A DNA stretch of 64,000 bases from Bacteroidaceae bacterium (lineage in GTDB: Bacteria > Pseudomonadota > Alphaproteobacteria > RF32 > CAG-239), in contig CAVIDY010000008.1 in the NCBI GenBank assembly GCA_963641885.1, positions 1,398 to 65,397 on the forward strand, given 5' to 3'. The number at the start of each line of letters is the position of its first letter. The stretch's first letter is position 1. Positions 44,344 to 60,799 of the stretch are shown piece after piece. The notes under the pieces were generated by a model that was not told the origin of the DNA, did not search any database, and was given only the letters and a program-made list of their open reading frames with translations. The position numbers and the translations under genes were made by a program.

Positions 44344-44354
44344 TTTTCTCTCCG

Positions 44355-46211: not shown

Positions 46212-46274
46212 ATTTTTTATCCTCTCAAATTTGTTCCTATTTTACTAGCGCTCTGTTGTTTTGTAAATACCTTT

Positions 46275-48725
46275 TTATTTTGGATTTTGCGGTAAAGGAT
46301 TACCGTTTTCATCGACATACTCCCAGTCTCCGTCATCGCCGGAAACAGGATTACCGTTTTCATCGACATATTCCCAGTCTCCGTCATCGCCGGAGATCGG
46401 GTTACCGTTTTCATCGACATATTCCCAATCGCCGTCATCGCCGGAAACAGGATTGCCGTTTTCATCAACATATTCCCAATCGCCGTCATCACCTGAAACA
46501 GGATTGCCGTTTTCATCGACATATTCCCAATCGCCGTCATCTGCTGCAGAATTGTTTTCTTTGGTGAAGGCGGTTTGCGTTTGTTGAGCCGCTGCTGTTT
46601 GAGCCTGCGGTTTCGGCAATTCATCGTCACCGCCCAAAGATATAGGCTTTATATTGTCCAAGGAAATATCATCATCCGAGCTTAGCGCATTTTTTATTTT
46701 TAACAAAGCATCTTCGTACGAATGCAACTGTGACTTTTTATATTCTTGGTTTTGCGGTTCAGGTTCTTTCGGCAAATCTACGGCAGGCTTGCTGGTAGGA
46801 GTTGGTTTTGTTTCAACAGGTCTTACCGATTCAGACTTTTGAACCGCAGCAGGCGTGGTGAAAGAATCAGCAGAGAAAATATCCGGTTCAAAAGAATTGT
46901 CTTCTTCGGAAGGAATGGCTGCCAATATATCTTCTATACTAAGGTTTTCATCTTTGGGAGTAGGTTTCGGTTGCTCCTTAACCGGTTCAGAATTAGGAGC
47001 AGGTTTTGGCTGCTCTTTAACCAATTCAGGCTTTGGAGCAGGTTTTGGCTGCTCCTTAACTGGTTCAGGATTTGGAGCAGGTTTCGACTGCTCTTTAACC
47101 AATTCAGGCTTTGGAGCAGGTTTCGGCTGCTCCTTAACTGGTTCAGGATTTGGAGCAGGTTTTGGCTGTTCCTTAACTGGTTCAGGCTTTGGAGTAGGTT
47201 TTGGCTGCTCCTTAACTGGTTCAGGCTTTGGAGTAGGTTTGGGCTGTTCCTTAACCGGTTCAGGCTTTGGAGCAGGTTTCGGCTGTTCTTTAACCAATTC
47301 AGGCTTTGGAGCAGGTTTTGGCTGCTGCTGAACAGGGGCAGTTGGTTGTTTTTCTTTGTCTTTAAGGTTGACCGTTAAAGCCTCGTTATTTTTATGCTCG
47401 TTTGCCGAATTGTCTTTTTTAGAGGCTTTTTCATCAATTTTTTTGTTCGGCTGTTGGTCGTTTTTATTCTGATTTTTCAGGTCGTTAATTTTGTTTAAGC
47501 TTTTATTTATGCGGCTAAGCAAAGTGTCAGAAGAGTTTTTTGCCTCGTTGCTGAAGTTTTGGGTTAACTTATTGGTTGTTTCGCTTATTTTATCGCTGAA
47601 GCTTTTTATAAAATTATTTTTATCTTTTGCTTGCTCTGCTTTTTTTGTATTATTGCTTTCATTCTTTTTTGGCTGCTGAGCATTTGCCGTATTAGAAGTA
47701 TTTTGTTTAGAAACAATAGTATTACCGCCAGTTTGGTCTTCTACATCAACATCTTGCGAAACCACAACTTTTACAGTGGAGCGTGGTGCGGACTGCGCTA
47801 GAGTTTGCGCTAATTCCTGCTGCGATTGGGTGATTGCCTGCACTAGCATTTCACCAAAAGATTTTATGGCTTCAAGCTGTTGCGAGTTGTTTTGACGCAA
47901 TGCTTCGGCAAGAGCCGTTGCCGGTATTCCGGAATTTAATGCTGCGGCTAGTCCGGCGTTGTTTTCTGTCGAGGTGCCGCCGTTTAGAATATTTTTATTC
48001 AAAGCAGCAATAATTTGCATCATATCTTCATGGCGGCGGGCATCGTTTTGCATAAGCGTTTGATTTATGCTGCTAAAGTAGGAGGTATCCATATTGATGT
48101 TGTTAACAGTGGTTGAAGAATTATTTTGCTGCTGAGCTGTCATTCCTGTCGGCTGTACTGGTGCTGCAGAAAAGGTTTGCTGCTGCGTCGCTGATGTTGT
48201 ATTAACCTGACCTGCAAGGCGGTTGGTTAAAGTTTGCATACTGGCAGCATAGGCATTGAATGATTTGTTCAGCAAAATTGCCAAATCGGTCATATTGTTA
48301 TTAGATGCAGCATTGCTGCTTTGCAGTGCCGCCGCCAAAGAATTTGCTAAACTTTCGGCAAAATCAGCGCCTAAAGTAAGCTCACCGCCGTTTCCGGAGT
48401 GCTGTTTCAGGCTGTCGATTGATTTTTTTTCTTCTTCTATGTTTTGGGCTATGAGTTCGCTGGTGCCGCCGGAATTTTTACCTTGTTTTTCTTCAACTTC
48501 TTTAACGTGTTCCAAAAAAACGCGTCCGCCAGGCAGGGTTGCCAGCAATTCTTTGGTTTTTTCTGAGATATTAAGCAGAGACTCGTCAAATTCATCTTTT
48601 TTTGCTTGATTGAAAATATGAATTTGGTGGAAAATATTTAAATAACGTTGGGCAACCAGAATCGGGTCTTCTTCTTCCGGATTGCTGGAATATTCTACAT
48701 CATCTTCAATTAAGTCTTCTGCCAC
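46275..48725 (-). CDS. 816-aa repeat protein: conserved N-domain, Q/N/A-rich middle, PKP repeats, five acidic Trp repeats
   Basis: GTG start with GGAG/GAGG upstream and no TM helix. The N-domain (AQRYLNIFHQIHIFN...LPGGRVFLEHVKE) is shared with the 272-aa gene upstream. Confidence 0.7.
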   Translation of the reverse strand: MAEDLIEDDVEYSSNPEEEDPILVAQRYLNIFHQIHIFNQAKKDEFDESLLNISEKTKELLATLPGGRVFLEHVKEVEEKQGKNSGGTSELIAQNIEEEKKSIDSLKQHSGNGGELTLGADFAESLANSLAAALQSSNAASNNNMTDLAILLNKSFNAYAASMQTLTNRLAGQVNTTSATQQQTFSAAPVQPTGMTAQQQNNSSTTVNNINMDTSYFSSINQTLMQNDARRHEDMMQIIAALNKNILNGGTSTENNAGLAAALNSGIPATALAEALRQNNSQQLEAIKSFGEMLVQAITQSQQELAQTLAQSAPRSTVKVVVSQDVDVEDQTGGNTIVSKQNTSNTANAQQPKKNESNNTKKAEQAKDKNNFIKSFSDKISETTNKLTQNFSNEAKNSSDTLLSRINKSLNKINDLKNQNKNDQQPNKKIDEKASKKDNSANEHKNNEALTVNLKDKEKQPTAPVQQQPKPAPKPELVKEQPKPAPKPEPVKEQPKPTPKPEPVKEQPKPTPKPEPVKEQPKPAPNPEPVKEQPKPAPKPELVKEQSKPAPNPEPVKEQPKPAPKPELVKEQPKPAPNSEPVKEQPKPTPKDENLSIEDILAAIPSEEDNSFEPDIFSADSFTTPAAVQKSESVRPVETKPTPTSKPAVDLPKEPEPQNQEYKKSQLHSYEDALLKIKNALSSDDDISLDNIKPISLGGDDELPKPQAQTAAAQQTQTAFTKENNSAADDGDWEYVDENGNPVSGDDGDWEYVDENGNPVSGDDGDWEYVDENGNPISGDDGDWEYVDENGNPVSGDDGDWEYVDENGNPLPQNPK
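46297..46541 (-). repeat. 51-bp tandem coding repeat, ~4.8 copies (GDDGDWEYVDENGNPVS)
   Basis: Period counted directly: ATTACCGTTTTCATCGACATACTCCCAGTCTCCGTCATCGCCGGAAACAGG is 51 nt. Copies differ by only a few bases. Confidence 0.85.
46958..47328 (-). repeat. 39-bp tandem coding repeat, ~9.5 copies (PKPAPKPEPVKEQ)
   Basis: Period counted directly as 39 nt. The protein shows nine xVKEQ units with P/L, A/T and K/N variation. Confidence 0.85.
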
Positions 48726-48778
48726 CTGTTGTGCCTCACTCCATAAAAAACAACTTATTCTTTTCTAATATATAAGAA

Positions 48779-48806
48779 AGAGAGTAAATTTCTTGTTAAA
48801 ATATAG
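48779..48806 (-). promoter_or_regulatory. conserved 28-bp upstream element, copy 2 (minus strand CTATATTTTAACAAGAAATTTACTCTCT)
   Basis: 25/28 identical to 49687..49714. Lies 54-81 nt upstream of the GTG of the 816-aa gene and contains a -10-like TATATT. Confidence 0.35.
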
Positions 48807-48823
48807 GCAGTAAGAGCGAAAAA

Positions 48824-49642
48824 TTATAGCCCGATAAGCACTACTTTGTGGATTTTTGCAATATTGCTGATAGTAAACAGTATTTTTTCTTCAGGATTGC
48901 AGCGCAAACCATATAATTGTCCGCGTTCGTCCGTATAGAGCCTAACCAGTTTTGCTTCGGCTTTGTTAAAAAAGTAGAGCGCTAAATCGCCTGAACCGAC
49001 AAGCTCGGATTTGTCAATATAAAGTATGGCTTTGTCGGATAAATCCAGTCCGACGCATTTAGCGTTAAGTTTAACCGCATAAACCGAATGCTTGTTTTGC
49101 AAGGCAATGGGGCAGGATATCAATCTTAGGATTGTGGATTTACTGATAAGCAAGTTTCCGTCAGCAGTGGTTGAGCCAAAAAGCGGAATTGTGCTAATTG
49201 TATGCGCAAGATCAGAATTTGTTGTCAGATTTGCACTTTTGAGTGCGTCAACCAAAGAGTTTGCTAATTTTTCGGCAAATTCGTTGCCGATAGCCAGCTC
49301 GCCGACTGTTACGTTTATGTTGTGCTTTTTGTGATGTGTTTCTGCTGATTTTTTTTCTTCTTCAATGTTTTTAGTAATCTGATTAAGCGTTTCGTCCGAA
49401 ATTGTATCGTCATCTTCAAGTTCTTTTATATGTTCCAGCAAAACTTTTCCGCCAGGCATATTGACCAGCAGTTTTTTTATTTTGTCATTCATCTGCAAAA
49501 GAGATTGGTCAAATTCCGCTCTCTTTTCAGCATTGAAAATATGAATTTGATGAAAAATATTTAGATAGCGCTGAGCATCAAGAATCGGATATTCTTCATC
49601 TTTTTCGCTGGCAACATCATTTTCTCTTATTACGTCTGACAC
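48824..49642 (-). CDS. chimeric 272-aa protein: N-domain of the 816-aa protein fused to an S24-like C-domain of the XRE regulator
   Basis: N-terminus: PILDAQRYLNIFHQIHIFN...MPGGKVLLEHIKE. C-terminus: PLFGSTTADGN...GQLYGLRCNPEE...KIHKVVLIGL, versus LPVFGTSNAEGN...GQLYGLRWNPDE...KIHKVVAINL in the regulator. Confidence 0.65.
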   Translation of the reverse strand: MSDVIRENDVASEKDEEYPILDAQRYLNIFHQIHIFNAEKRAEFDQSLLQMNDKIKKLLVNMPGGKVLLEHIKELEDDDTISDETLNQITKNIEEEKKSAETHHKKHNINVTVGELAIGNEFAEKLANSLVDALKSANLTTNSDLAHTISTIPLFGSTTADGNLLISKSTILRLISCPIALQNKHSVYAVKLNAKCVGLDLSDKAILYIDKSELVGSGDLALYFFNKAEAKLVRLYTDERGQLYGLRCNPEEKILFTISNIAKIHKVVLIGL

Positions 49643-49730: not shown

Positions 49731-50720
49731 TTATAAGTTGATAGCCACAACCTTATGAATTTTTGTTAAATCGCTGTTGCTGAAATTTGTCCGTTCATCA
49801 GGATTCCAACGCAAGCCGTAAAGCTGACCGTTTTCATCTTCGCGAACGCTGATTAGCATAGCTTCGGTTTCGCTGATGTAATATAAGGCAATGTCGCCGG
49901 CGCTGACAACTTCTGTTTTATCTATAAACAAAATAGCGCGGCTCGGCAAAAGCGAACCCAAACGGCGGGTGCACAAATTTACGGCATAAGCTTCCGGTTT
50001 GTTTTGCAGCTGCACTGGGCAAACAACTTCTTTTACGGCATTGGCGCGGTCAATGACAATATTGCCTTCGGCGTTGCTGGTGCCAAAAACAGGCAGCATA
50101 GCCGTTTCATCGTCATCGGCAGTTTGCGCGGCAACATTAGAATATCTGGAGTTGTTTAAAAGTTTATAGCGGGTTTCATTGTGTTCGATAATATCTTCTA
50201 AAACGCCTTCATTTTCCAGCTTTTTGATTTCGGCTTTCAATTTGTCGAGAGGCATAGAAAAAGCTTTGGCGATGTTTTGATATTCTTTGTCAGAAACTTC
50301 TCTTTGTCCCATTTCTATACGGTGATAAACCGACAGAGTCATATCAGCGCTTTCGGCAACTTCAATTAAGGTCAAACCTTTGTCAGTGCGAATGTGGCGC
50401 AAACCAGCACCCAAAGTTTTCAAACCAGCATTTTGGTTGATTTTGCAGCGTCTTTCCTGTTCGCGTTTCCAAGCTTGAACAACATCTTGCTGTGAATTTT
50501 GTTCATTAACGTATAAATCTTGCAGCGAGCAGTCAATAAGTTCGGCAACCTGAATCAGCTGTTCTTGATTGAGACGGCGGTAACCTTTTTCAATTTTAGA
50601 AATAGCCGACAAGCTGACTCCCAAATGATCAGCCAATTCTTGCATAGACATACCGCGCAATCTTCTGTGCATTCTGATTTGATTAGGGAAAATAATTTCT
50701 TCCATATCATCTTTCTCCAT
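49731..50720 (-). CDS. transcriptional regulator with two XRE-type HTH domains and a C-terminal S24/LexA-like beta-barrel domain
   Basis: HTH 1: IRMHRRLRGMSMQELADHLGVSLSAISKIEKG. HTH 2: LRHIRTDKGLTLIEVAESADMTLSVYHRIEMG. The C-domain follows the S24 pattern. Confidence 0.75.
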   Translation of the reverse strand: MEKDDMEEIIFPNQIRMHRRLRGMSMQELADHLGVSLSAISKIEKGYRRLNQEQLIQVAELIDCSLQDLYVNEQNSQQDVVQAWKREQERRCKINQNAGLKTLGAGLRHIRTDKGLTLIEVAESADMTLSVYHRIEMGQREVSDKEYQNIAKAFSMPLDKLKAEIKKLENEGVLEDIIEHNETRYKLLNNSRYSNVAAQTADDDETAMLPVFGTSNAEGNIVIDRANAVKEVVCPVQLQNKPEAYAVNLCTRRLGSLLPSRAILFIDKTEVVSAGDIALYYISETEAMLISVREDENGQLYGLRWNPDERTNFSNSDLTKIHKVVAINL

Positions 50721-50902: not shown

Positions 50903-53900
50903 CTATTTAGAGTCTTTATCTTTAACATCTTTACCAGCTAAAATGTCTTTCATTTCTTCGGCTGTAAGTACGGTTTTGTGCAAACCTTTTTTCAGTTTTT
51001 CATCTTGCAGCTGGTTAAGGTGTTCTTGGAACTCTTTGGCGTTGAAACCAGCCATGGCTTTTTGCGCGTCCATACCATAGCCCCAAGCTCCGTTTTCATC
51101 TAAAGGCTGAGAAATTCGGCTGCGGCTGTGGGCTTCATCAGTAAAGCTGTATTTTATAGTTTTAATAAAAGTTCCATCAGTCTGTTTAGCAAAAGATGTG
51201 GTTTTGCTTTGCACGCCGTTGCTCTTCTGCATTGTGATGTTGCCGTTGATGTCAGTGGTTTTATTTTCTATAATCATCTGACCATTATCCATTGAGGCGC
51301 GTATTTCCTGTTTGCTGCCGTTATTGTTGATTTGCTGAATAGTGACGCTGCCGTCCTTATTCATTGTAACTTTGCGGTCTTTGAAACGGCTGTCAAGGTT
51401 TTGACCACGAGCTTTTAAGTGCAGAGCCGCCATCGCAGCCAGGGCGTCGGCTTTGTTTTCGGCGCTGACGCCGTTCATAATTTGATTATAGGCGTGCATA
51501 TTGGTTGAACCGTCTTTGTTAATTAAATATTTTGAGCTTACGTTTTTGAACTGCACATCGCTGCCAATTACTTTACCGTTAGCGTCAACCATGGTGCGTT
51601 TGCTCATAAAGGTGTCATTGGTAGTTTGTACGCTGCCTTTGTGGCTTTCAGTTACCATATCCGTATCTTTGGCGCGTTTATATTTAAGTATATTGCCGTT
51701 TTGGTCGGTAACTAAAACGCTGCTGCCGTCTTTTGAGGTATATTTAACAGTGCCGTCATCCTGAACGGATTTGGTCATTTGCTCATATTTGGCAAACGCA
51801 CCTTTACCGCTGGTTCTGACTGCGAATGTCTGCTCGCCGTTAGCATCAGTCATTGGCTTAAATGCTTTATCGGCAACAGTTTTTTGATGCGTTTCTTTGG
51901 TTTGCGTCCACACGCCGTTAGCGTCCTTGGTAACGGTGCGGGTTTGTGTAAACCCTGGGAGACCCTTGAAACGAGCCTGATAGCCAATTACATTGCCGTC
52001 GGCGTCGCGGAGCTTGCGTCCGCCGAGAGCAACCAAAGCCATGCCTTTTAGCTGATTCTTTTTGCTGCGCACCCAGTTGCCAGCAAGCGAGTTTGTGGCT
52101 TCACCAACAGCTTCCGCACCTTTCTTGGCGATATGACCTGCGCCTTTGGCTATCGGCTTAGCGGCGGAAGCAACCGCACCGCCGACCATGCGACCGATAC
52201 CTTGGCGACCAAAGTCGGCTCCGGTTGCAAATTTGCTTGCCATAGACGGAACTTCATCAATAAAGCATACAAACAAGAATATAAAGGCAAAGATTTTGAA
52301 AAATCCGACCCCCCACCAAGCAAGCCCGTTTGCTTTGAAAGCGGTGATTAGCAATACAGGGTCAAAAGTGGAGAGCGATTCATCGGTTAGCCCAATCCAC
52401 TCTTTGAACATAGAGGTTAAAATAAACATCAGCACGGCTAAGAATATCAGGTTGAACATGGCGTTCATAAAGAAGTTCCAAATAATGCCAAGGTATTTAG
52501 CCGTTGATTTGAAGGCAAAAGCGGCTATAGAGCACGGAATCATCGCCGCGGCAATGCACAGCTGCAAAATGCAGTCTATCAGACACCATGGGAAGGCAAA
52601 GAGCAAAAAGACGCCGACCAGCCATAATCCCATGCCGGACAGAAAGTAGCCAAGGTGCGGGATAACGCCGTCCCACAAGGCCTTGTCATGAAAAGCGTAG
52701 CAGGTGGAATAGTTACCGAGCGCCAAGAGAACACCGACGCTGTCTTCCAAATTTTTGATAGTGCAGATGATTGATTGTCCAAGGTTGCGAGGCAAACCGC
52801 CTTGAGAAGTTTCTTGCATGCCTTTGTCGGTGTCATAGCCGACAATTCCCCCCATATAGTCGGCGGAACTGTCGCAGTTGGAGTTAGGGTTGAGCATGTT
52901 GGCAAAAGTCAAGCCAGTTTGCATTACAGGGGTTAAAGTTAAGTCCATTACCTGATACAGCGCGCCTGATAAAATATATACAACAATGGCGACGCGTGCG
53001 CCCTGCAGAAATATGCCTTTCAGCAAATCTCCAGGGGAGGCGCCTTGGAACGAAGAAATTTGTTTTAAAATATAAATGGCTAGCCAAATTAAAAAGCCGA
53101 TAAGCACAAGGTTTTTGCTGGGAGCCGCTAATTTGCTGATGGCGGTTTGCGCAAGGTTGCTGGCAGCGTTGAAAATTGTTTTGAAAATACCGCAAGTGGT
53201 GCAGGTTTGCTTATCCAAATAATCTGAAAGTATGCAAGATGATTCTCCGCTGCCGTCAACAAATTCTTCACCATTCGGAGCGCCTGGTCCAACAGGCATA
53301 CTGGCATCATCAACTTCGTTGCCGGAAGCCGAATTGCCGTCACTGAAGCTTTGCATACCACCTATGCAAGATTTTGTGCTGGTAGGGCAGCTGCCGCAAA
53401 GGGCTTGCAGGTTACCGCAAGACGCTTGCATGGTTTGACTGTTGCCTACATAAGTTGAACTTGCGGACATTGCGCTATTAACAACTTCAAAGTGCAGGTG
53501 GATTGCATAGTAACGGGAGCAGTTTTTAGCCTGAAGTGGGTTATCGCAGACTGGACCGGAGCGGCTGGAAGCATTAGAGCCGCCGACAACACCGATTGCT
53601 TGGTCTTTTTTTACTTCGCCGCTGCATTTAGTCTGCTTAAATAAATGGCGGTAAATGGTGGAGTAATATTGTCCATTTTTGCCTGCTCCGTCACAGTGTT
53701 TGGTGTGACGGATAACGGTTGTACGTCCGCCGCCAGTGGATATGGAGCAACCCATAACAACGCCGTCAGCTGCGGCATAGGCAAGCACGTTAGTTTTTTT
53801 GCCAGTACCTAAATCGCTTCCGTAGTGGTTTCGAGTGGAGGAACGGGCACCTTCGCGGTTATAGGAGCCGACACTGCTGACGGGAACAGAGTTGAAACAC

Positions 53901-54154
53901 CCGCCGCTGGTTTGGTCGGCAACACATTTTGCTTTAACTTGTTGGGAAGCGCTGCCGACTAAGGAACCGCTTGAAGTTTTGTTTGGTGAGCAGCCGCCCT
54001 GCGATTCACTGTTGGTTGCGGCGCTGCATTTAGGAGTAACGCCGTTGCAGCTGGAAAAAGCCGGAGCCGCAGACAAAGCAAAGCAGCCTGCACTTAAACA
54101 AAGTATCAGCAGGTTTGTTGAAAATTTTTGTAAAAATGTTTGCCGCTTTTTCAT
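50903..54154 (-). CDS. M23 (LytM-type) metallopeptidase head + TrbL/VirB6-like polytopic module + ~400-aa hydrophilic C-terminal extension
   Basis: Signal peptide. HYGSD (HxxxD) and HLHFE (HxH) zinc ligands. CTTCGIF motif. VirB6-like blocks (LIGFLIWLAIYILKQI...; LIDCILQLCIAAAMIPCSIAAFAFKST). Confidence 0.65.
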   Translation of the reverse strand: MKKRQTFLQKFSTNLLILCLSAGCFALSAAPAFSSCNGVTPKCSAATNSESQGGCSPNKTSSGSLVGSASQQVKAKCVADQTSGGCFNSVPVSSVGSYNREGARSSTRNHYGSDLGTGKKTNVLAYAAADGVVMGCSISTGGGRTTVIRHTKHCDGAGKNGQYYSTIYRHLFKQTKCSGEVKKDQAIGVVGGSNASSRSGPVCDNPLQAKNCSRYYAIHLHFEVVNSAMSASSTYVGNSQTMQASCGNLQALCGSCPTSTKSCIGGMQSFSDGNSASGNEVDDASMPVGPGAPNGEEFVDGSGESSCILSDYLDKQTCTTCGIFKTIFNAASNLAQTAISKLAAPSKNLVLIGFLIWLAIYILKQISSFQGASPGDLLKGIFLQGARVAIVVYILSGALYQVMDLTLTPVMQTGLTFANMLNPNSNCDSSADYMGGIVGYDTDKGMQETSQGGLPRNLGQSIICTIKNLEDSVGVLLALGNYSTCYAFHDKALWDGVIPHLGYFLSGMGLWLVGVFLLFAFPWCLIDCILQLCIAAAMIPCSIAAFAFKSTAKYLGIIWNFFMNAMFNLIFLAVLMFILTSMFKEWIGLTDESLSTFDPVLLITAFKANGLAWWGVGFFKIFAFIFLFVCFIDEVPSMASKFATGADFGRQGIGRMVGGAVASAAKPIAKGAGHIAKKGAEAVGEATNSLAGNWVRSKKNQLKGMALVALGGRKLRDADGNVIGYQARFKGLPGFTQTRTVTKDANGVWTQTKETHQKTVADKAFKPMTDANGEQTFAVRTSGKGAFAKYEQMTKSVQDDGTVKYTSKDGSSVLVTDQNGNILKYKRAKDTDMVTESHKGSVQTTNDTFMSKRTMVDANGKVIGSDVQFKNVSSKYLINKDGSTNMHAYNQIMNGVSAENKADALAAMAALHLKARGQNLDSRFKDRKVTMNKDGSVTIQQINNNGSKQEIRASMDNGQMIIENKTTDINGNITMQKSNGVQSKTTSFAKQTDGTFIKTIKYSFTDEAHSRSRISQPLDENGAWGYGMDAQKAMAGFNAKEFQEHLNQLQDEKLKKGLHKTVLTAEEMKDILAGKDVKDKDSK

Positions 54155-54174
54155 TTATTCCTCTTTTTCTGCCA

Positions 54175-56475
54175 TTAGTTAGAACTGTTGTTTCTTTCTT
54201 GCTCGCTTTGGTATTCTGCATCTAGCTGACGCTGATAATCACTGTCATCATAGCCTTTGTTCTTTTGTTTTTGGCGTTGTCTATAGTATTGCTGCGGTTT
54301 CTTTTGCATGCTCTTGCCAAGACTTTGCAGAAAACCTCCGGCTATGCCCATTCCGGCGTTGGCGGTTTCGGTTGCAGTGCCGCGGACGCTGCGGATAACC
54401 ACTTGACCGCTCTTTTTCAAAACCAATTTACCTTTATCTTTTAGCGTTTCTGCATTTTTCCAATCTTGAGAGCCTTGCCGAGCCAGTTGTTTTATGGTTC
54501 TGTAGGCTTGCTGCGGATGGCGGACAGCCTTAAAAGCGTTGCCGATTGTCAAACTGTGACCAGTAGGGCGGGAATAGCTTTTGAATTGCTGCCATTTGGT
54601 TTGCGGTAATTCTGCGGATTGAGCATTTTCAGACTGTGTTTCTCTGGTGTTGGAATTTTTAGAGCCAGTTACTCTGTTGTCTGTTGTTTGCGGAGTACCG
54701 CTGTTATCAGCTGTCGGCTGACCGCCACTTTCCGAATCGTTATTTATAGGGGTATCCGGCGTATCGTTGGTGTTATCAGGCATATCATTGTTACCTGCAG
54801 TGTCGTCGGCATTGTTTGTCGGAAACGGGGTCGCTCCGCCGGAAGGCGAAGTTTGCGGATTGGTTCCGCCTTGCGCAGGAGCAGCGCCGCCGCCAAATTT
54901 TTTGTTAGCCAGTTTATTGCCAAGTTTTTCTATGCCTTTTCCACCTTGAGTTAAAGCGACGTCTCTGGCAAAACGACCGATAGGATTAACAACGCTTTTT
55001 TTAATTTGACCAACGGCTTGAGTGCCGAGATGGTGCATAGCGGTATCGGCAGAGCCAAGCGCACCGTCGCCAAAGAAAGTGGAAAGATAGTTTTGAATGC
55101 TTGACGATAGAATTTTGAAACCAAAAATCAACGCGAACAGAATGATTAGAATGTTAACCGAGCTTAAATCGTAGGATTCACTGAATTTTTCCATGCTGTT
55201 CGCGTATTTGCCGGAGTTAAGAGTTAGCCAAGTTTTAGCGGTGTTTGCCAAACCATCGCCCAAACCATTATCTGTCGCACCCATAATCATCCAAAATTCA
55301 TCATCTTTTACCATGCCAAGGCTGGCGTCAACTAATTTTACCGCATAGGCAGTACCGATGGAAACAAAGGCAAACAGCATAGCGTTATAGATGACGATGG
55401 CAATGTTTTCGGACAATTTACTTTGGGTTGGAGGAAACGGCCAAAGCGAAATAGACAGCGGCAAAAGCAAAGTGGCAAAGCCAAGCTTGAAAGAAATATC
55501 TATAAAATACATACCAATCGACATGCACATAAAGAAGCCGGTGAGGTAAATTAAGAGACCGGAAATAAAGTAGTTAAGCAGCGGTACAACTACCGTGCAG
55601 CTGACTAATGATTTGACTGCGGCGGAAAAACCAGCACCGCCGTCCAAGCAGATAGGAGAAACTTTGGTCGAAAAGCACATCAAAGCGTGTCCGCGGGCAA
55701 ACAGCACGCTAAGTGACTGATAAATCAGCGCCATCATATCTTTGAGGTCTATTAAAATATCTTCGGCAAACAGGCGGTGTTTCATTATTTCATTGTTGAC
55801 AATTTGACCGTTTTTCTCTGCAGCGCTTTGGCAATCGGAAGGTAAAACATACATATTTTCAGGATCGTTGGCTAAATCGTAGTCGCTGGAGCTGCCGCCA
55901 CTAAGAGCGCCTCCGCCGCCAGCAAGGGAAGTGCTGCTATGCCAGGTTTTAAGCGCGCTTAAACCAACACCGTAGACAATTTTATGGTTTCCGACAACTT
56001 TATAGTTTCTGCCTCTTGCCCAAGCCGGAGCTTTACCTTTTTTATCCATCCAGGTTGCATAATAAAAAGTGGCGCCGTTGGTAACATCTTTCAGGCTTCC
56101 GGCAATGGCTTGCCGCGCTATTTCCAAGCATTTTTTCCAGGCCCGAGCATTAGCGCTGTTTAGTTTGCTTGCCCAGCTTTCTATGTTTTGAACAGTCCAG
56201 TTTCTCTTATCATTCCAAAATGAAAATTGGTATCTTGCCAAGCAGACGTCAGATAGTTTTACCGTTTGTCCGCCTTTAGCGTGAGCCTGATAATAGTTGC
56301 GGCGGTTCATAATCACGCTGGCAACGGTTTGCATGCCGGTGACGCCTTCGCCGCCAGCTTCGCCGAACAATGTGGCGGTTAAATAAGCTTCTTCATATGA
56401 CAAAGTAAAAGCAGTGCTTGTGTAAAGCAGCAAACTTGCGAGGGTTATAAGTATGTATTTCTTAAACTTTTTCAT
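54175..56475 (-). CDS. SleB/CwlJ-type cell wall hydrolase head + C-terminal half of a TrbL/VirB6-like module + low-complexity tail
   Basis: Signal peptide. LFGEAGGEG...VASVIMNR...YQFSFW...GATFYYATW...VGNHKIVYG (Hydrolase_2 pattern). TM block YFIDISFKLGFATLLLPLSISLWPFPPT. Confidence 0.65.
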   Translation of the reverse strand: MKKFKKYILITLASLLLYTSTAFTLSYEEAYLTATLFGEAGGEGVTGMQTVASVIMNRRNYYQAHAKGGQTVKLSDVCLARYQFSFWNDKRNWTVQNIESWASKLNSANARAWKKCLEIARQAIAGSLKDVTNGATFYYATWMDKKGKAPAWARGRNYKVVGNHKIVYGVGLSALKTWHSSTSLAGGGGALSGGSSSDYDLANDPENMYVLPSDCQSAAEKNGQIVNNEIMKHRLFAEDILIDLKDMMALIYQSLSVLFARGHALMCFSTKVSPICLDGGAGFSAAVKSLVSCTVVVPLLNYFISGLLIYLTGFFMCMSIGMYFIDISFKLGFATLLLPLSISLWPFPPTQSKLSENIAIVIYNAMLFAFVSIGTAYAVKLVDASLGMVKDDEFWMIMGATDNGLGDGLANTAKTWLTLNSGKYANSMEKFSESYDLSSVNILIILFALIFGFKILSSSIQNYLSTFFGDGALGSADTAMHHLGTQAVGQIKKSVVNPIGRFARDVALTQGGKGIEKLGNKLANKKFGGGAAPAQGGTNPQTSPSGGATPFPTNNADDTAGNNDMPDNTNDTPDTPINNDSESGGQPTADNSGTPQTTDNRVTGSKNSNTRETQSENAQSAELPQTKWQQFKSYSRPTGHSLTIGNAFKAVRHPQQAYRTIKQLARQGSQDWKNAETLKDKGKLVLKKSGQVVIRSVRGTATETANAGMGIAGGFLQSLGKSMQKKPQQYYRQRQKQKNKGYDDSDYQRQLDAEYQSEQERNNSSN

Positions 56476-56488: not shown

Positions 56489-57064
56489 TTAACCGCTTGC
56501 CGCTCCGTTTTGCGCCAACATTTCCGTTAAAATTGATTTGCCAATTCCGGTACCGGTTGAAACAATCGGGTTCAAAATGTAGTTGGTGATAAAATCTGTG
56601 CCCATTTCCAGCGCGTAATAGGCAAACGCACACTTAAAGCCCATCATAAAAATTTCTTGTAGCATTTTTCCGGGGGTTATTCCACCCATGGAACTAAGCT
56701 GTTGCAAAAGAAAAATTCCCAGCCAAATTAAAAAGCCCCATTTAAGAATAACTTTGCCTAAACTCTGCGTGGTGGGAATTGAACTTTCCGCCGCCTGCAA
56801 AAAAGCATCGGTCATCAAGGTAACAATACGGCAATACCAGCAGTTTTGCGCATCTTTGGCATTATACATCGAATCCATGGCTTTTTTGGTGCAAGTTCCC
56901 GTAACTTCCGCATTTTCTGCGGTTTTGTCTGCGTTAGTGGCAGCGGTTTTGCTAGCATTATCATCGGCAGCGGCATAGCTTAAATTTGCGCTGGCAAAGC
57001 TGAAGCACAGTGTGAAAATAAGTAAATATAAAAAACTTTTAGAGAGATTAACTATCTTTTTCAT
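56489..57064 (-). CDS. 191-aa protein equal to the N-terminal half of a TrbL/VirB6-like module
   Basis: Signal peptide, CWYC motif, LKWGFLIWLGIFLLQQLSSMGGITPGKMLQEIFMMGFKCAFAYYAL and YILNPIVSTGTGIG. It stops in the loop where the paralogs continue. Confidence 0.55.
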   Translation of the reverse strand: MKKIVNLSKSFLYLLIFTLCFSFASANLSYAAADDNASKTAATNADKTAENAEVTGTCTKKAMDSMYNAKDAQNCWYCRIVTLMTDAFLQAAESSIPTTQSLGKVILKWGFLIWLGIFLLQQLSSMGGITPGKMLQEIFMMGFKCAFAYYALEMGTDFITNYILNPIVSTGTGIGKSILTEMLAQNGAASG

Positions 57065-58427
57065 TGCGGTTTATCCCCCTTAACTTATCCATTTTTTGTT
57101 GAACAGCTTTGATTTTTGCCGTAGCTTTCTGTACCTTGGCACGAGCTTTACGCAAAGATTCCACATGGTCTATGATAGAAGTGGCAATTTTGCCGGCGCC
57201 ACCGGAGATAATATGAAATCCCCATTTTGCAGCCATAGCAACCAGCTGCTGAATTTTGCGCTGCATGCCCGCTTTACCTCCTCCTCCGGTGATTTTGTTG
57301 GAAAGCTCCACAGACATACCGGTTGCCTTGACAATTAAAAAGCCCATAAAGATAAGCGCCATGGCAGTGGTGCCGAAATTTTCATATTTGCTTTGTTCAG
57401 CCAGCCCGATACCGTCCTGCGTTAATAATTTCTGCATGGCGAGAATGGTCATGGAAACAATGATGCCCAAACAAAACATAATAGCCGAAGAATTGAGGAT
57501 TATCTTAAAACCGGTAACGCTCCATTTGCGGATTTGCTCAAAAGGATACGCCATTATCAGGAATGGTAAAATAATCATTATCATATTCAAACGGAAAATG
57601 CTGTCGGCTAAATAGAGCACAAAACAGAGCTTGGCAATGGTGAACCAAACAATTAAGAAACAGCCGCAGATAAAACTGGTCAGGCTGACAATTTTCATTA
57701 AGCGTATGGCAATGTCATAGCCGATGGCAAGTCTGGAGCTGACGGCGCACGCCATGCAGCTCAGCATATTAAGCGGTTCTTCCGGAAAAGATTTTGCCGA
57801 AAAATCAGTCATGCTTTTAGGGTTGAACTTGCAGCCGCTTTGTCCCCAGTTGGCGTCGCCGTAATACTCGCACATAATTCCTTCTGTGTCATCGCCGAAT
57901 GTTGATTTCCAAGCAATGGTCTTTACCTGCGCGTCAGGATCTTGAGCCAGCCTTTGCATAATTTCGGACGTAAACTCTAAAATGGTGATGTATATAGGAA
58001 ATATAAAGTTATTTATCACATAATAAATTTGCTCGGTAGAAGAGGCTAAAATGCCGCAAAACGCGCATAAAAAGGCTTTGCGGACAATCTTGGTCCAAAA
58101 TTCGCCCAAGGATTCGGGAGTAGGCGTGCTGATGTGGCGCAGAATTTGATATGCCATCCAGATGGTAAAACCAAGCAAAACAATGTTTAGCAGATTTTCT
58201 TTGGTCAGATTGCTGTAAACGTTTAGGGTTTGAGTGCCGATATTTTTGTAAAAAAGTTTCAAGAAACCAGTTTGCCAGCAAGTGTTCTGCATTTCTGCGG
58301 CTTTGCGGGGGTCTTCCTGCCCAACACTAGTTCCACCTTCTTCGGTGCTGCAGGCGGTCAGCAAAAACAGTAGGGAAAAGGCAATAAACAATACCTTTAA
58401 GATATTATGCAGCTTTGGTGCTTTCAT
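57048..58427 (-). CDS. TrbL/VirB6-like polytopic membrane lipoprotein
   Basis: Lipobox LLTAC. Both conserved blocks are present (LLGFTIWMAYQILRHI...; YLADSIFRLNMIMIILPFLIMAYPFEQIRKW). GGGGKAG tail. Confidence 0.65.
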   Translation of the reverse strand: MKAPKLHNILKVLFIAFSLLFLLTACSTEEGGTSVGQEDPRKAAEMQNTCWQTGFLKLFYKNIGTQTLNVYSNLTKENLLNIVLLGFTIWMAYQILRHISTPTPESLGEFWTKIVRKAFLCAFCGILASSTEQIYYVINNFIFPIYITILEFTSEIMQRLAQDPDAQVKTIAWKSTFGDDTEGIMCEYYGDANWGQSGCKFNPKSMTDFSAKSFPEEPLNMLSCMACAVSSRLAIGYDIAIRLMKIVSLTSFICGCFLIVWFTIAKLCFVLYLADSIFRLNMIMIILPFLIMAYPFEQIRKWSVTGFKIILNSSAIMFCLGIIVSMTILAMQKLLTQDGIGLAEQSKYENFGTTAMALIFMGFLIVKATGMSVELSNKITGGGGKAGMQRKIQQLVAMAAKWGFHIISGGAGKIATSIIDHVESLRKARAKVQKATAKIKAVQQKMDKLRGINRNEKDS

Positions 58428-58536: not shown

Positions 58537-60498
58537 TTACGGATTTTGTTGATTGTTATTTTCTTCAGTTTGCTCTGTGTTTTCTATTTTTGAAGTTTCA
58601 GCGTCTTTGTCGGATGGCGAAGTTGGCGTTGGCTTAGGAGTTGTATCTTTACCGTCAGACTTGGTCGGTTTTGGCGGCATACCGCGTTGTGCTCCCGGCT
58701 GGAATTTCTTTAAGCCGACTTTTGCTCCGACGGCAGCCGCGCCCTTCAGTGCTGCTCCGGAAATTGCATTGCCGGCTTTGTTGGCTAAATTTGTAATACC
58801 TGTTTTATCCGCAGCATATCCGGCAGCCGAAGAAACAACTCTGCCACCGATTTTGGCAGCACCTTTGCCGATAGAGGTTGCAGCAGACGCGGTAGCTCCA
58901 CCGATTTTAGCGGCAATGCTTGAGCCGGAGCCGGAAGCGAATTTATTGGCAGTACCATTGATAATGCCTATCATTTTGAAGGCAAAAATGCAGCAGGCGA
59001 TTAAAATCAAAGTTTCCATACCATCAAGACTGGCGATTTCATTAACCTTGTCCAAATCGTTTTCATTCAAAGCATTTAGCAATGTAGATAAATCACCTTT
59101 TTTGCCGCCAGCTGAATAGCCGATTATTTCCATGCCCACAACCAGCATAACACCAGCAAGCGCAAAGTTGAAAAATGTGTTCATCAGCATGCTCATGCCT
59201 TTGTTGGCGTATCTAGTCGTCAACTTAAACGGCCAGCAGGCGATCAAAACCGGCACAAAAGCGCATAAAATACCTAGCTGAACCGTGCAGTCTATTAGAT
59301 AAAAAACGATAACCATCCAAATTCCCAAGCCAAAAATATAAACGACTAGTCCATTTGCCCATATGCCAAAATCAGGAATAAGGTCTTTTTTCCAGCCATA
59401 GCAAATAAGCGCGCGTCCCACAGAAGGCATGGTAGAGGCAGATTGGCTGAAACAGTCGGCGGTGTTATAAATGCTGCCCAGCAACGAAGCGTCCATTTCG
59501 CCGCCCGGTGCCATTGAAAACATTGAAACTTTGTCTATACAGCTTTTTGCCCCAGGGTTGCCGATTGAAAGCAGCGCCAGTCCCATATCTAAGCCGCCCT
59601 TGACTATTGGTGAAATTACATAATTGTAAATATCGGCGGAGTTGCTTAGCAAATAATAAGCGATAGCGACTCTAAGTCCCAATCCGATAATCGCTTTTAA
59701 ATAAGCGCCAGTGTTGGCTCCGGACGGAGTGAAAATGGTTCTGAGCGTCTGTAAGGCAAGATATACCAAGAAAAAGGTCAGAACAATCGGCTGCAGGGCA
59801 GAGGCAAGGGCTTTCCAAGCAATGGAGGCAAGGGAGGCGTCTGCACTCAAAACTGTTTGAAATATAGGGCAAAGCGGACAGCCGGCGTAATCGCTTAAAT
59901 AGCTGGAAAACGGTTTGCAGCCTTTTACTTGGTCTTTGAGTTCGTGGGTTTGGTTGGAATAGCTGACACATTCAGCGTTTTGCCCGTTGTCGTCGCAAAC
60001 GCAGGATAAATTTGCGTCAGGGTCTTGACGGACAACACCTAAAACATTTTCTGCCTTAGACCGTAGGTTGATAAATTTTTCCAGCATTTGGGCTGCTTGG
60101 TTTTTTAGCTTTACACATTCAGGTTTTTTCGGGTTTTCAGCGTTCCAAGCAACACCAGTATATTCAAAATTATCTTTGCGGATATAGTAAGCGCTGTCAA
60201 TGCTGCCGGAAGAAGTTTTTTCCAGCATAATAATGCTTTGTCTAGCTAAATCAGTGAAAATTGTGGGTGTCTGTTTATTTAATCCGCGGTTGCAGTTTTC
60301 TTCATATTGTTTGGCAACGGTGTTATAAGCGTCAAGCTGGCTTTTTACGCTGTTCAACGAAGCAATAGCTGTTTGATTTATGTTTTTTTTGAGATTTTCA
60401 AGTTCTTGAGGCTTGCACTCTGCAGCGTCGGCATAAAGTTTCGGCATAGCGGAGAACAGGCAGAAAAAAATAAATATAAACAGTTTAAGTTTAGACAT
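58537..60498 (-). CDS. TrbL/VirB6-like polytopic membrane protein with Cys-rich coiled-coil periplasmic head
   Basis: Start set at MSKLKLFIF (signal peptide, GGGGAGAA RBS), not at the tracked 60669. CPLCPIF motif, both conserved blocks, Gly/Ala/Lys tail. Confidence 0.65.
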   Translation of the reverse strand: MSKLKLFIFIFFCLFSAMPKLYADAAECKPQELENLKKNINQTAIASLNSVKSQLDAYNTVAKQYEENCNRGLNKQTPTIFTDLARQSIIMLEKTSSGSIDSAYYIRKDNFEYTGVAWNAENPKKPECVKLKNQAAQMLEKFINLRSKAENVLGVVRQDPDANLSCVCDDNGQNAECVSYSNQTHELKDQVKGCKPFSSYLSDYAGCPLCPIFQTVLSADASLASIAWKALASALQPIVLTFFLVYLALQTLRTIFTPSGANTGAYLKAIIGLGLRVAIAYYLLSNSADIYNYVISPIVKGGLDMGLALLSIGNPGAKSCIDKVSMFSMAPGGEMDASLLGSIYNTADCFSQSASTMPSVGRALICYGWKKDLIPDFGIWANGLVVYIFGLGIWMVIVFYLIDCTVQLGILCAFVPVLIACWPFKLTTRYANKGMSMLMNTFFNFALAGVMLVVGMEIIGYSAGGKKGDLSTLLNALNENDLDKVNEIASLDGMETLILIACCIFAFKMIGIINGTANKFASGSGSSIAAKIGGATASAATSIGKGAAKIGGRVVSSAAGYAADKTGITNLANKAGNAISGAALKGAAAVGAKVGLKKFQPGAQRGMPPKPTKSDGKDTTPKPTPTSPSDKDAETSKIENTEQTEENNNQQNP

Positions 60499-60799
60499 TT
60501 TTATTCTCCCCGTTGGTTTTACCGCGGCGTCTGCGGGATTTTTTCTGCGTTTTTGTCGGCTCGGCAACATTTTGTTTGAGGTGCAGTTTTTGTTTAATAA
60601 AATTAGAAATCCTGACAAGGAAATTGGTATATTTGTTTTGCGGAACGCCGACCAGCAGCAAACCAGCAAGCAATACTAAAATAAAGCCGATTTTAGCCGA
60701 ATAGGCAAAGAAACTTGTGCCGATAATATCCAAGGCGTGCGAACTCACTAGTGAAAACACGACAATAAACATTAGCAATGTAAGAAAAATCGACTTCAT
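60491..60799 (-). CDS. 102-aa two-TM protein with strongly basic C-tail
   Basis: Overlaps the next gene start by 8 nt (translational coupling). Hydrophobic segments at residues 4-20 and 37-52. Tail KKSRRRRGK. Confidence 0.5.
   Translation of the reverse strand: MKSIFLTLLMFIVVFSLVSSHALDIIGTSFFAYSAKIGFILVLLAGLLLVGVPQNKYTNFLVRISNFIKQKLHLKQNVAEPTKTQKKSRRRRGKTNGENKNV

What the first reader, a model, noticed from the sequence alone, without database searches (positions are those of the whole stretch)
50903..56475. Peptidoglycan hydrolase domains fused to VirB6-like membrane modules
The last two array members replace the Cys-rich coiled-coil periplasmic head of the other paralogs with enzymes. Residues ~25-175 of the 766-aa protein (55951..56403) follow the SleB/CwlJ Hydrolase_2 pattern: GEAGGEG, VASVIMNR, YQFSFW, GATFYY, VGNHKIVYG. 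Residues ~95-240 of the 1083-aa protein (53435..53872) form an M23 domain with intact HxxxD (HYGSD) and HxH (HLHFE) zinc ligands. Classical T4SSs breach the sacculus with a separate VirB1 lytic transglycosylase. I do not know of described systems in which an amidase/endopeptidase-type hydrolase is covalently joined to the VirB6 channel subunit. Both proteins have signal peptides, so the hydrolase heads should face the periplasm.
Basis: partly seen in the sequence, partly recalled or inferred. Interest (0 to 1): 0.75.

Follow-up and report, generated by a model that had tools for sequence, protein, structure and literature searches.

The report
Cell-wall-cutting enzymes fused to VirB6 subunits
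In an uncultured gut alphaproteobacterium, two members of a tandem array of VirB6-like type IV secretion membrane proteins carry cell-wall-cutting enzyme domains on their periplasmic ends, which suggests the secretion machine brings its own tools for opening the cell wall.

Summary
The 766-aa ORF (54175-56475, minus strand) has a SleB-type Hydrolase_2 head. Pfam scores it at 52 bits, its predicted fold matches SleB (PDB 4FET), and the catalytic Glu39 is invariant. The 1083-aa ORF (50903-54154, minus strand) has an M23/LytM head. Its Pfam score of 26 bits is just below the cutoff, but the predicted fold matches M23 structures and H110/D114/H170/H219/H221 are conserved. Both heads sit on VirB6/TrbL membrane modules, as shown by paralogy to a TrbL-positive neighbour and by Foldseek matches to R388 TrwI.

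Three corrections apply:
- SleB is a lytic transglycosylase, so this head is a functional analogue of VirB1, not an amidase.
- The 766-aa protein carries only the C-terminal half of a VirB6 module. The adjacent 191-aa ORF is the N-terminal half, and this gene split is conserved across species.
- The architecture is not rare.

The whole block is syntenic in 66 species-level gut and rumen alphaproteobacterial MAGs. The hydrolase head varies in position between lineages. Relatives carry SLT or VgrG3-like heads instead.

In sister lineages the block abuts a virB8-9-10-11 operon. No such operon was found for the window's own sub-clade.

Best reading: a T4SS resembling the Rickettsiales rvh system, in which enzymes tethered to VirB6 open the sacculus. 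I found no description of this in the literature. I rate it a new variant of a known kind.

The parts
63172..64000 (-). Conserved first gene of the block, about 288 aa in full. The window end cuts its 5' part. Function unknown.
   Evidence: Homologues head the block in 47 loci. The full ORF starts MKFDFF..., as seen in L001 and L217. No Pfam match.
60835..63063 (-). VirB6 paralogue a (742 aa): signal peptide, Cys-rich periplasmic head and VirB6 module.
   Evidence: Pfam TrbL 19.8 bits. BLASTP against the 710-aa paralogue gives E=6e-66. My N-half and C-half HMMs hit its orthologues.
60491..60799 (-). Small conserved ORF with two transmembrane segments (102 aa), lying between paralogues a and b.
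   Evidence: Conserved in L001, L003, L004, L006, L007, L009 and L011. Called as a gene in an independent assembly. No Pfam match.
58537..60498 (-). VirB6 paralogue b (653 aa). The longest ORF runs to 60669 (710 aa), but the shorter start is supported.
   Evidence: Pfam TrbL 30.1 bits, above the cutoff of 25.9. The 653-aa start is used in orthologues and in independent gene calls.
57048..58427 (-). VirB6 paralogue c (459 aa), with a lipoprotein-like signal (LLLTAC).
   Evidence: BLASTP against the 742-aa paralogue gives E=3e-11 and against the 1083-aa protein E=6e-6. N-half and C-half HMM hits in its orthologues.
56489..57064 (-). VirB6 paralogue d, N-terminal half (191 aa): signal peptide, CxxC motif and the first two transmembrane helices.
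   Evidence: Aligns to aa 269-414 of the 1083-aa protein and aa 219-368 of the 710-aa protein. In L009, L069 and L072-L078 this part and the C-half are one protein.
54175..56475 (-). VirB6 paralogue d, C-terminal half (766 aa): signal peptide, Hydrolase_2 head, Gly/Ser linker, three transmembrane helices of VirB6 and a disordered tail.
55951..56403 (-). SleB-type Hydrolase_2 domain (aa 25-175), with predicted catalytic Glu39.
   Evidence: Pfam 52.2 bits. Foldseek best match 4FET at probability 1.0. Glu39 invariant.
50903..54154 (-). VirB6 paralogue e (1083 aa): signal peptide, Cys-rich segment, M23 head, linker, five-helix VirB6 module and a beta-rich repeat tail.
53435..53872 (-). M23/LytM domain (aa 95-240), with H110-x3-D114, H170 and H219-x-H221.
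   Evidence: Pfam 26 bits. Residues conserved. Foldseek matches 3NYY, 3SLU and SpoIIQ at probability 1.0.
52220..53239 (-). VirB6/TrbL membrane module of the 1083-aa protein (aa 306-645).
   Evidence: Foldseek matches TrwI 8RT9_F and 8RTD_L at probability 1.0 and TM-score about 0.56. BLASTP against the 710-aa paralogue.
50906..52057 (-). Beta-rich repeat tail (aa 700-1083) resembling YD/RHS repeats, predicted cytoplasmic.
   Evidence: Model is beta-rich with pLDDT 80-93. Weak Rhs match. Homologues carry RHS_repeat or MORN_2. Five transmembrane helices place the C-terminus in the cytoplasm (inference).
49731..50720 (-). Double-HTH (Xre-type) regulator, always immediately downstream of the array.
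   Evidence: Pfam HTH_3 86 bits. Present in 69 loci.
43741..49642 (-). Five conserved co-located genes of unknown function: 272 aa, 816 aa (repeat-rich), 168 aa, 445 aa (lipoprotein) and 200 aa (single transmembrane segment).
   Evidence: Found in 43-63 loci with the array. They lie between the array and virB11 in about 45 sister genomes. No Pfam or PDB match.

Best explanation
The region is the distal end of a chromosomal operon of five tandem extended VirB6 paralogues. They belong to a P-type T4SS that resembles the Rickettsiales rvh system and is found in an uncultured clade of gut and rumen Alphaproteobacteria. Records in this clade carry names such as CAG:495, Azospirillum sp. 51_20 and Ca. 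Scatocola.

Shown:
- Paralogue e (1083 aa) carries an M23 endopeptidase domain upstream of a five-helix VirB6 module.
- Paralogue d is split in its central periplasmic loop into a 191-aa N-half and a 766-aa C-half.
- The C-half has its own signal peptide and a SleB-type lytic-transglycosylase-like head.
- The catalytic residues of both heads are conserved.

Inferred mechanism:
- Sec export places both heads in the periplasm. Flexible linkers of about 50-65 residues tether them to the inner-membrane VirB6 platform. In R388 that platform is a pentamer at the base of the stalk.
- One head cuts glycan strands and the other cuts peptide cross-links. Together they open the sacculus locally, exactly where the stalk and outer-membrane complex must pass.
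- This does the job of the soluble VirB1 of classical systems.
- The five paralogues may assemble as a mixed pentamer.
For: Domain identities are established by Pfam, fold matches and conserved residues.

Topology: each protein has a signal peptide, followed by 5 transmembrane segments in the 1083-aa protein and by 2+3 in the split pair.

The whole block is syntenic in 66 species-level genomes.

The heads are under constraint like the membrane modules. Mean identity is 53% for M23 against 60% for its VirB6 module, and 52% for Hydrolase_2 against 56%. Linkers and tails are at 36-46%.

The same VirB6 paralogue recruited a cell-wall enzyme repeatedly and in different ways:
- Hydrolase_2 on the C-half in 20 genomes.
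- Hydrolase_2 on the N-half in 12 genomes.
- An M23 inside the loop of the unsplit protein in L009.
- A free-standing Hydrolase_2 gene at the end of the block in L011.

Among 39 large-headed relatives, 25 carry M23, 7 carry SLT (the VirB1 domain family itself) and 7 carry the T6SS_VgrG3-like_C domain.

T4SS link: in L069/L080 the block is followed, tail to tail, by VirB8 (79 bits), VirB9/CagX+SPOR, a beta-flower protein, VirB10/TrbI (121 bits) and VirB11/T2SSE (79 bits). The same adjacency is seen in about 45 of 80 VirB11-centred loci. At least 20 MAGs hold both the array and VirB11.
Against: - No VirB4, VirB8-11 or VirD4 lies in the 64-kb window. Nine of the ORFs of at least 150 aa in the first 10.3 kb had no family or structure scan; they were compared only with the VirB8-11 locus proteins by BLASTP.
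- Two genome scans for VirB11 did not return any MAG of the window's own sub-clade among the 80 loci kept in each scan.
- VirB4 was not located in any genome of the clade.
- The window's M23 domain scores just below the Pfam cutoff.
- Enzyme activity, membrane topology and assembly into a T4SS are all untested.
- Whether a separate VirB1/SLT gene exists elsewhere in the genome is unknown.
Confidence: 0.6

Rival explanations
1. The VirB6-like array, together with the conserved downstream genes (HTH regulator, 816-aa, 168-aa, 445-aa lipoprotein, 200-aa protein), is an envelope complex of its own. It would remodel or anchor the cell wall without a T4SS, at least in the window's sub-clade.
For: No T4SS ATPase or core gene lies in the window or next to the array in the window-like lineages, the loci that carry Hydrolase_2 on the C-half or N-half of paralogue d. 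The window's sub-clade did not appear in two VirB11 scans. The five downstream genes match no known family.
Against: The modules match a bona fide T4SS VirB6 structure. The same block abuts virB8-11 in about 45 sister genomes. Scattered T4SS loci are normal in the Rickettsiales rvh system (established knowledge; PMC2653234). Each VirB11 scan kept only the best 80 of 210 or 269 relatives, so absence from the list is weak evidence.
Confidence: 0.15
2. The heads are payloads, not assembly tools. They would be clipped off at the linker, as VirB1 is processed to VirB1*, or exposed at the surface. They would then act on the cell walls of neighbouring bacteria as T4SS-associated antibacterial weapons.
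For: Relatives carry a VgrG3-like C-terminal domain, a family named after a T6SS spike protein. The linkers are long and disordered. Cell-wall-degrading T4SS effectors are known in Xanthomonadales (PMC6759196, PMC8262851).
Against: The heads are N-terminal, Sec-exported and covalently joined to a polytopic inner-membrane protein. No immunity-like gene is conserved next to them. No XVIP-type C-terminal signal was looked for or seen.
Confidence: 0.12
3. The heads are non-catalytic protein- or peptidoglycan-binding scaffolds, like the degenerate LytM domains of SpoIIQ, EnvC or NlpD. They would anchor the stalk base to the sacculus or to partner proteins.
For: SpoIIQ, a degenerate LytM that forms part of a channel, is among the structural matches. 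The VirB9 of this clade carries a SPOR peptidoglycan-binding domain, so anchoring to the wall seems to matter in this system.
Against: All five M23 active-site residues and the Hydrolase_2 glutamate are conserved across the family. Degenerate LytM factors have lost them (established knowledge).
Confidence: 0.08
4. The 191-aa and 766-aa pair is a decaying, frameshifted VirB6 pseudogene, and the fusion is an annotation artefact.
For: Together the two ORFs make up one VirB6 module, and they are unsplit in distant lineages.
Against: The split is kept in 53 of 66 species-level genomes. Each half has its own signal peptide, and the sequences are conserved. Independent assemblies give identical gene calls.
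Confidence: 0.03

Closest known systems
Extended VirB6 paralogue arrays of the Rickettsiales vir homolog (rvh) T4SS (RvhB6a-e; Anaplasma and Ehrlichia VirB6-1 to -4)
   Same: - Four or five tandem VirB6 paralogues.
- Each is much longer than the roughly 300-aa canonical VirB6, with N- and C-terminal extensions.
- T4SS genes are scattered over several chromosomal loci.
- virB8-9-10-11 form a separate operon.
- The host is an alphaproteobacterium (PMC2653234, PMC7648143).
   Different: - No virB3-virB4 lies upstream of the array.
- The organisms are gut and rumen Alphaproteobacteria filed under Rhodospirillales, not Rickettsiales.
- I found no report of hydrolase heads in RvhB6 proteins.
- One paralogue is split into two genes.
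VirB1 (SLT-type lytic transglycosylase of Agrobacterium VirB and other Gram-negative T4SSs)
   Same: Proposed role: local opening of peptidoglycan for machine assembly. The SleB-type head belongs to the same enzyme class, lytic transglycosylase. Some relatives of these VirB6 proteins carry a true SLT domain.
   Different: VirB1 is a soluble periplasmic protein of the SLT family (PMC12857230). Here the enzymes are Hydrolase_2 and M23 folds, covalently tethered to VirB6.
Membrane-anchored multidomain VirB1-like hydrolases of Gram-positive T4SSs (PrgK of pCF10, TraG of pIP501, Orf14 of Tn916)
   Same: They are membrane-tethered, and a glycan-cleaving activity is combined with a peptide-cleaving one. 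PrgK contains LytM, SLT and CHAP domains (PMC12857230, section on PG-degrading enzymes).
   Different: Their anchor is a simple transmembrane segment in a dedicated protein, not the VirB6 channel subunit. Here the two activities sit on two different VirB6 paralogues of a diderm organism.
TraG of the F plasmid (VirB6-like N-terminal domain plus a functional extra domain)
   Same: It is a precedent for VirB6 serving as a platform to which a second functional domain is fused (PMC4027160).
   Different: The extra domain of TraG is C-terminal and acts in mating-pair stabilisation and entry exclusion. It is not a cell-wall enzyme.
FlgJ of beta- and gamma-proteobacterial flagella (rod-cap scaffold fused to a muramidase)
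   Same: It follows the same design logic: a cell-wall hydrolase fused to a structural part of an envelope-spanning machine. Fused and unfused versions occur in different lineages (my own knowledge, not tested here).
   Different: It belongs to a different machine with unrelated protein families.

Membership tests
Hydrolase_2 (SleB/CwlJ; PF07486) | Profile match above the curated cutoff | tested here: met
   52.2 bits against a cutoff of 27, aa 42-164. 26 of 35 homologues also match.
Hydrolase_2 (SleB/CwlJ; PF07486) | SleB catalytic-domain fold | tested here: met
   The best Foldseek match is 4FET, at probability 1.0 and TM-score 0.76 on the target.
Hydrolase_2 (SleB/CwlJ; PF07486) | Catalytic glutamate in the N-terminal (Y/F)GE motif | tested here: met
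   Glu39 is invariant in 17 diverse heads and aligns to the YGE of SleB 4FET/4F55. That this Glu is the catalytic residue rests on my knowledge of the SleB structure papers.
Hydrolase_2 (SleB/CwlJ; PF07486) | Muralytic activity | not testable with these tools
   Needs enzyme assays.
Peptidase_M23 (LytM; PF01551) | Profile match above the curated cutoff | tested here: inconclusive
   The window protein scores 26.0 bits against a cutoff of 28.7. Orthologues and relatives score 70-72 bits, with best E=3e-29.
Peptidase_M23 (LytM; PF01551) | LytM fold | tested here: met
   pLDDT is 83-95 over the domain. Foldseek matches 3NYY, 3SLU, 3UZ0 and 3TUF at probability 1.0.
Peptidase_M23 (LytM; PF01551) | HxxxD and HxH zinc and catalytic residues, plus the middle His | tested here: met
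   H110, D114 and H221 are at least 90% conserved, and H170 and H219 are invariant, in 43 homologues.
TrbL/VirB6 (PF04610) | Profile match | tested here: inconclusive
   Neither of the two proteins hits at E<=0.01. The 710-aa paralogue scores 30.1 bits. Orthologues score 30.2 (L011), 44.3 (L009) and 32.7 (P0221). BLASTP paralogy gives E=1e-31 and 1e-12.
TrbL/VirB6 (PF04610) | Structural match to a T4SS VirB6 | tested here: met
   R388 TrwI (8RT9_F, 8RTD_L, 7O3V) matches at probability 1.0 and TM-score 0.55-0.58 for the 1083-aa model. It matches at probability 0.9-0.97 for the 766-aa model.
TrbL/VirB6 (PF04610) | Polytopic protein of about 5 transmembrane segments, with a periplasmic N-terminus and a central periplasmic loop | tested here: met
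   Hydropathy and model helices give 5 transmembrane segments in the 1083-aa protein and 2+3 in the split pair. Orientation is inferred from the signal peptides.
TrbL/VirB6 (PF04610) | Encoded together with other T4SS subunits | tested here: inconclusive
   Not in the window. In L069/L080 and about 45 sister genomes the block is adjacent to virB8-9-10-11. VirB4 was not located.
VirB1 / SLT (PF01464) | SLT-family lytic transglycosylase domain | tested here: not met
   Neither protein has an SLT match. They are analogues of VirB1, not members. Seven of 39 relatives do carry SLT on VirB6.
Rickettsiales rvh T4SS | Tandem array of extended VirB6 paralogues | tested here: met
   Five modules in the window and 4-5 across 66 genomes.
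Rickettsiales rvh T4SS | Array preceded by virB3-virB4 | tested here: not met
   Upstream lie a 288-aa unknown gene and then the contig ends. In L011 the upstream genes are a TPR-methyltransferase and rpsD.
Rickettsiales rvh T4SS | Host in the order Rickettsiales | tested here: not met
   All records are gut or rumen Alphaproteobacteria. Named ones are filed under Rhodospirillales.

The most novel reading that the evidence does not exclude
A large, uncultured order of human and animal gut Alphaproteobacteria runs a T4SS without VirB1 that resembles the Rickettsiales rvh system. Its stalk base would be a mixed pentamer of five VirB6 paralogues. Two of them would carry complementary wall-cutting enzymes, one for glycan strands and one for peptide cross-links. 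VirB6 would then be the general docking platform for the peptidoglycan-breaching activity of T4SSs. The repeated independent capture of four different hydrolase folds (Hydrolase_2, M23, SLT, VgrG3-like) and the movement of the head between the two halves of a split VirB6 would record that constraint.
Probability: 0.3. Interest if true: 0.75.

Novelty: new variant of a known kind. Interest (0 to 1): 0.6.

Why it matters
Where and how T4SSs get through the sacculus is poorly defined. VirB1 is soluble, often dispensable, and absent from the solved machines.

A natural covalent fusion acts as a Rosetta-stone argument. It places the wall-cutting step at the VirB6 stalk base. The repeated capture of different hydrolase folds shows that selection acts on the tethering itself.

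The finding also reveals a conserved chromosomal T4SS of the Rickettsiales rvh type, with proliferated VirB6 genes, in a common but uncultured group of gut Alphaproteobacteria. Nothing seems to be published on the secretion biology of this group.

The stable split of VirB6 in its periplasmic loop is a natural experiment on how the subunit is built.

Tried and rejected
Searches that gave nothing useful:
- NCBIfam gave no hits for any array protein.
- Single-sequence and full-length profile searches of PDB sequences were uninformative for both heads. Only the domain-level profile weakly reached SleB.
- Pfam and PDB profile searches of the 445-aa, 200-aa, 168-aa, 224/288-aa and small two-transmembrane proteins found nothing.
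- I suspected from its C-terminal motif that the 445-aa lipoprotein was a secretin. Nothing supported this, so I dropped the idea.
- The N-terminal extensions of the 240-300-aa N-half proteins, in lineages without a detectable Hydrolase_2, matched no family.
- A regex search and two PDB searches failed to identify which relatives carry the SLT heads.

T4SS core genes for the window's own sub-clade:
- Two genome scans with VirB11 probes (L069 and L151) returned only the more distant half of the clade, at 81-100% identity.

Assembly breaks upstream of the block:
- I tested whether an rRNA or tRNA gene explains them. Rfam and ARAGORN found only one tRNA-His elsewhere in the window and nothing at the contig starts.

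Literature:
- Searches for VirB6/TrbL with hydrolase, M23, SLT fusion or RF32 returned nothing relevant.

Rejected idea:
- A recent frameshift as the cause of the 191/766 split, because the split is conserved in 53 of 66 species-level genomes.

Full report
**What is in the window.** The minus strand from 64000 down to 43741 carries a tight, co-directional gene block. In order it contains:
- a conserved gene of unknown function, cut by the window end (about 288 aa in full);
- a 742-aa protein;
- a 102-aa ORF with two transmembrane segments;
- a 653/710-aa protein;
- a 459-aa protein;
- a 191-aa protein;
- the 766-aa protein of the finding;
- the 1083-aa protein of the finding;
- a double-HTH regulator;
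- five further conserved genes of 272, 816, 168, 445 and 200 aa.

The rest of the window is ordinary chromosome. It includes ftsI, a phosphoglucomutase, a D,D-carboxypeptidase, folD, miaB, phoH, lnt and an ATP synthase operon. I detected no T4SS ATPase or core subunit in the window. Nine of the ORFs of at least 150 aa in the first 10.3 kb had no Pfam or PDB scan; they were compared only with the VirB8-11 locus proteins by BLASTP.

**Check of the observation.**
- All quoted motifs are present.
- The 766-aa protein matches Pfam Hydrolase_2 at 52 bits.
- Its modelled head (pLDDT about 80) finds the SleB catalytic domain 4FET as best PDB match, at probability 1.0 and TM-score 0.76.
- Glu39 is invariant in 17 diverse heads and aligns to the YGE of SleB.
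- The 1083-aa protein matches Peptidase_M23 at 26 bits, just under the 28.7-bit cutoff.
- Its model (mean pLDDT 78.6) matches LytM-type structures at probability 1.0.
- H170 and H219 are invariant, and H110, D114 and H221 are at least 90% conserved, in 43 homologues.
- Orthologues reach 70-72 bits.

**VirB6 identity.** Pfam TrbL does not hit the two proteins directly. The following evidence supports the assignment:
- The 710-aa paralogue passes the TrbL cutoff at 30.1 bits.
- BLASTP links both proteins to that paralogue at E=1e-31 and E=1e-12.
- Orthologues pass the TrbL cutoff.
- Both models match R388 TrwI/VirB6.
- Hydropathy gives a signal peptide plus five transmembrane helices in the 1083-aa protein.

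**A correction: the 766-aa protein is half of a VirB6.** It aligns only to the C-terminal part of the module, aa 409-634 of the 710-aa paralogue. The 191-aa ORF just upstream aligns to the N-terminal part, which holds the CxxC motif and the first two helices. In distant lineages (L009, L069, L072-L078) both parts are one protein. The break lies in the central periplasmic loop. The C-half has acquired its own signal peptide, which preserves the topology. The split is kept in 53 of 66 species-level genomes, so it is a stable gene fission and not decay.

**A second correction: SleB is a lytic transglycosylase.** The PDB entries name it so. This head is therefore the enzymatic analogue of VirB1. 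The M23 head supplies the complementary peptide-bond activity.

**Distribution.**
- Homologues of both proteins come only from gut and rumen metagenomes.
- A profile scan of one genome per species found the block in 66 uncultured Alphaproteobacteria.
- Gene order is conserved from the 288-aa gene through to the 200-aa gene.
- The array proteins diverge fast, at 44-56% identity in L006, where the regulator and the 168-aa and 445-aa proteins stay at 83-91%.
- Within the two proteins, the heads are about as conserved as the membrane modules. Linkers and tails are not.

**The head moves between lineages.** I built HMMs for the heads and for the two VirB6 halves and scanned all loci.
- M23 sits on paralogue e in 54 of 66 genomes.
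- Hydrolase_2 sits on the C-half of paralogue d in 20 genomes, as in the window.
- Hydrolase_2 sits on the N-half instead in 12 genomes. Pfam confirmed this for L007.
- Hydrolase_2 is undetectable in 27 genomes.
- In L009 the unsplit paralogue d carries an M23 inside its periplasmic loop.
- In L011 an extra free-standing Hydrolase_2 gene closes the block.

An exhaustive HMMER search found 865 representative relatives of the N-terminal 700 residues. I scanned 39 of them that have large heads. Of these, 25 carry M23, 7 carry SLT (the VirB1 family itself), 7 carry the VgrG3-like C-terminal domain, and some carry two such domains (P0221: M23 + VgrG3-like + TrbL). Repeated capture of four wall-hydrolase folds at different positions of a VirB6 protein argues that selection favours the tethering itself.

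**Is it a T4SS?** Not from the window alone. In L069/L080, however, the 200-aa gene is followed tail to tail by VirB11 (T2SSE, 79 bits) and VirB10 (TrbI, 121 bits, with beta-flower repeats). Further along are a beta-flower/RHS protein, VirB9 (CagX) with a C-terminal SPOR domain, and VirB8 (79 bits). VirB11 homologues at 81-100% identity exist in at least 269 genomes of the clade, including CAG:495, Azospirillum sp. 51_20 and Ca. Scatocola. In about 45 of 80 VirB11 loci the same block lies next door, and at least 20 MAGs hold both. The MAGs closest to the window were not among the best 80 of either scan. The core machine is therefore inferred, not shown, for this genome. VirB4 was not located anywhere in the clade.

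**Mechanism proposed.**
- Shown: the domain order, the signal peptides, the conserved catalytic residues and the VirB6 fold.
- Inferred: Sec export puts the heads in the periplasm on 50-65-residue flexible linkers (pLDDT below 50). The VirB6 modules assemble at the stalk base as in R388, perhaps as a mixed pentamer of the five paralogues. The two enzymes then cut glycan strands and cross-links at that spot.
- Rivals: an autonomous envelope complex, released or weaponised heads, and non-catalytic anchors. Each is weighed in its own entry.

**Novelty.** Full-text searches found no description of hydrolases fused to VirB6. The 2025 T4SS nomenclature review lists only soluble VirB1 in Gram-negatives and dedicated membrane-anchored hydrolases in Gram-positives. 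Database names for these proteins are 'M23 family metallopeptidase', 'type IV secretion system protein' or 'hypothetical'. I rate this a new variant of a known kind. The parts and the task are familiar. The covalent union with VirB6, the split subunit and the host clade are not.

Noticed in passing
window 63847-64000; starts of L001-L007, L008, L013, L217: At least ten independent assemblies end 0.2-5 kb upstream of the first gene of the block. Several share the sequence ...ACCGCACCTCATCGGCCGGTGATTGACTGTATAGAATAATCC... at the break. A multi-copy element (rRNA operon or IS?) probably lies there. Rfam found nothing in the retained bases.
   Followed up: partly
window 60491-60799 (-): A 102-aa ORF with two transmembrane segments lies between VirB6 paralogues a and b. 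It is conserved across the clade and is called as a gene in an independent assembly. It overlaps the long version of the 710-aa ORF, whose real start is probably at 60498. It might be a counterpart of VirB3 or VirB2, but no family match supports this.
   Followed up: partly
window 43741-49642 (-): Five genes of unknown function always accompany the array: 272 aa, 816 aa (with PKPEPVKEQ and DGDWEYVDENGNP repeats), 168 aa, a 445-aa lipoprotein and a 200-aa single-transmembrane protein. In sister genomes they lie between the array and virB11. The 445-aa and 168-aa proteins are far more conserved than the VirB6 paralogues. They are candidates for unrecognised T4SS parts.
   Followed up: partly
window 48824-49642 (-): The 272-aa protein is a chimera-like paralogue. 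Its first 145 aa are 52% identical to the start of the 816-aa protein. Its last 123 aa are 46% identical to the C-terminal domain of the HTH regulator.
   Followed up: no
L080 1-10969: The T4SS core operon of the clade is unusual. VirB9 carries a C-terminal SPOR (peptidoglycan-binding) domain. VirB10 is 1441 aa, with beta-flower repeats. A 1140-aa beta-flower/RHS-repeat protein sits between VirB9 and VirB10.
   Followed up: partly
window 50906-52057 (-): The C-terminal 380 residues of the 1083-aa protein form a confidently modelled beta-rich repeat domain resembling YD/RHS repeats, predicted to be cytoplasmic. Homologues carry RHS_repeat or MORN_2 hits there. Its role is unknown.
   Followed up: no
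window 36800-43508 (+): An ATP synthase operon begins with the beta subunit. Small ORFs, a, b/delta, alpha and gamma follow. This order is typical of N-type ATPases (my own knowledge). It is convergent with the block, at the place where sister genomes have virB11.
   Followed up: no
window 22907-25797 (-): A trio of adjacent genes encodes a Ser/Thr protein kinase, a PP2C phosphatase and a VWA-domain protein.
   Followed up: no
P0221 and 38 other relatives (alignment A6): Extended VirB6 relatives carry other heads: SLT (7 of 39), T6SS_VgrG3-like_C (7 of 39), GDSL lipase (1) and bactofilin-like (2). Some combine M23 with a VgrG3-like domain in one protein.
   Followed up: partly
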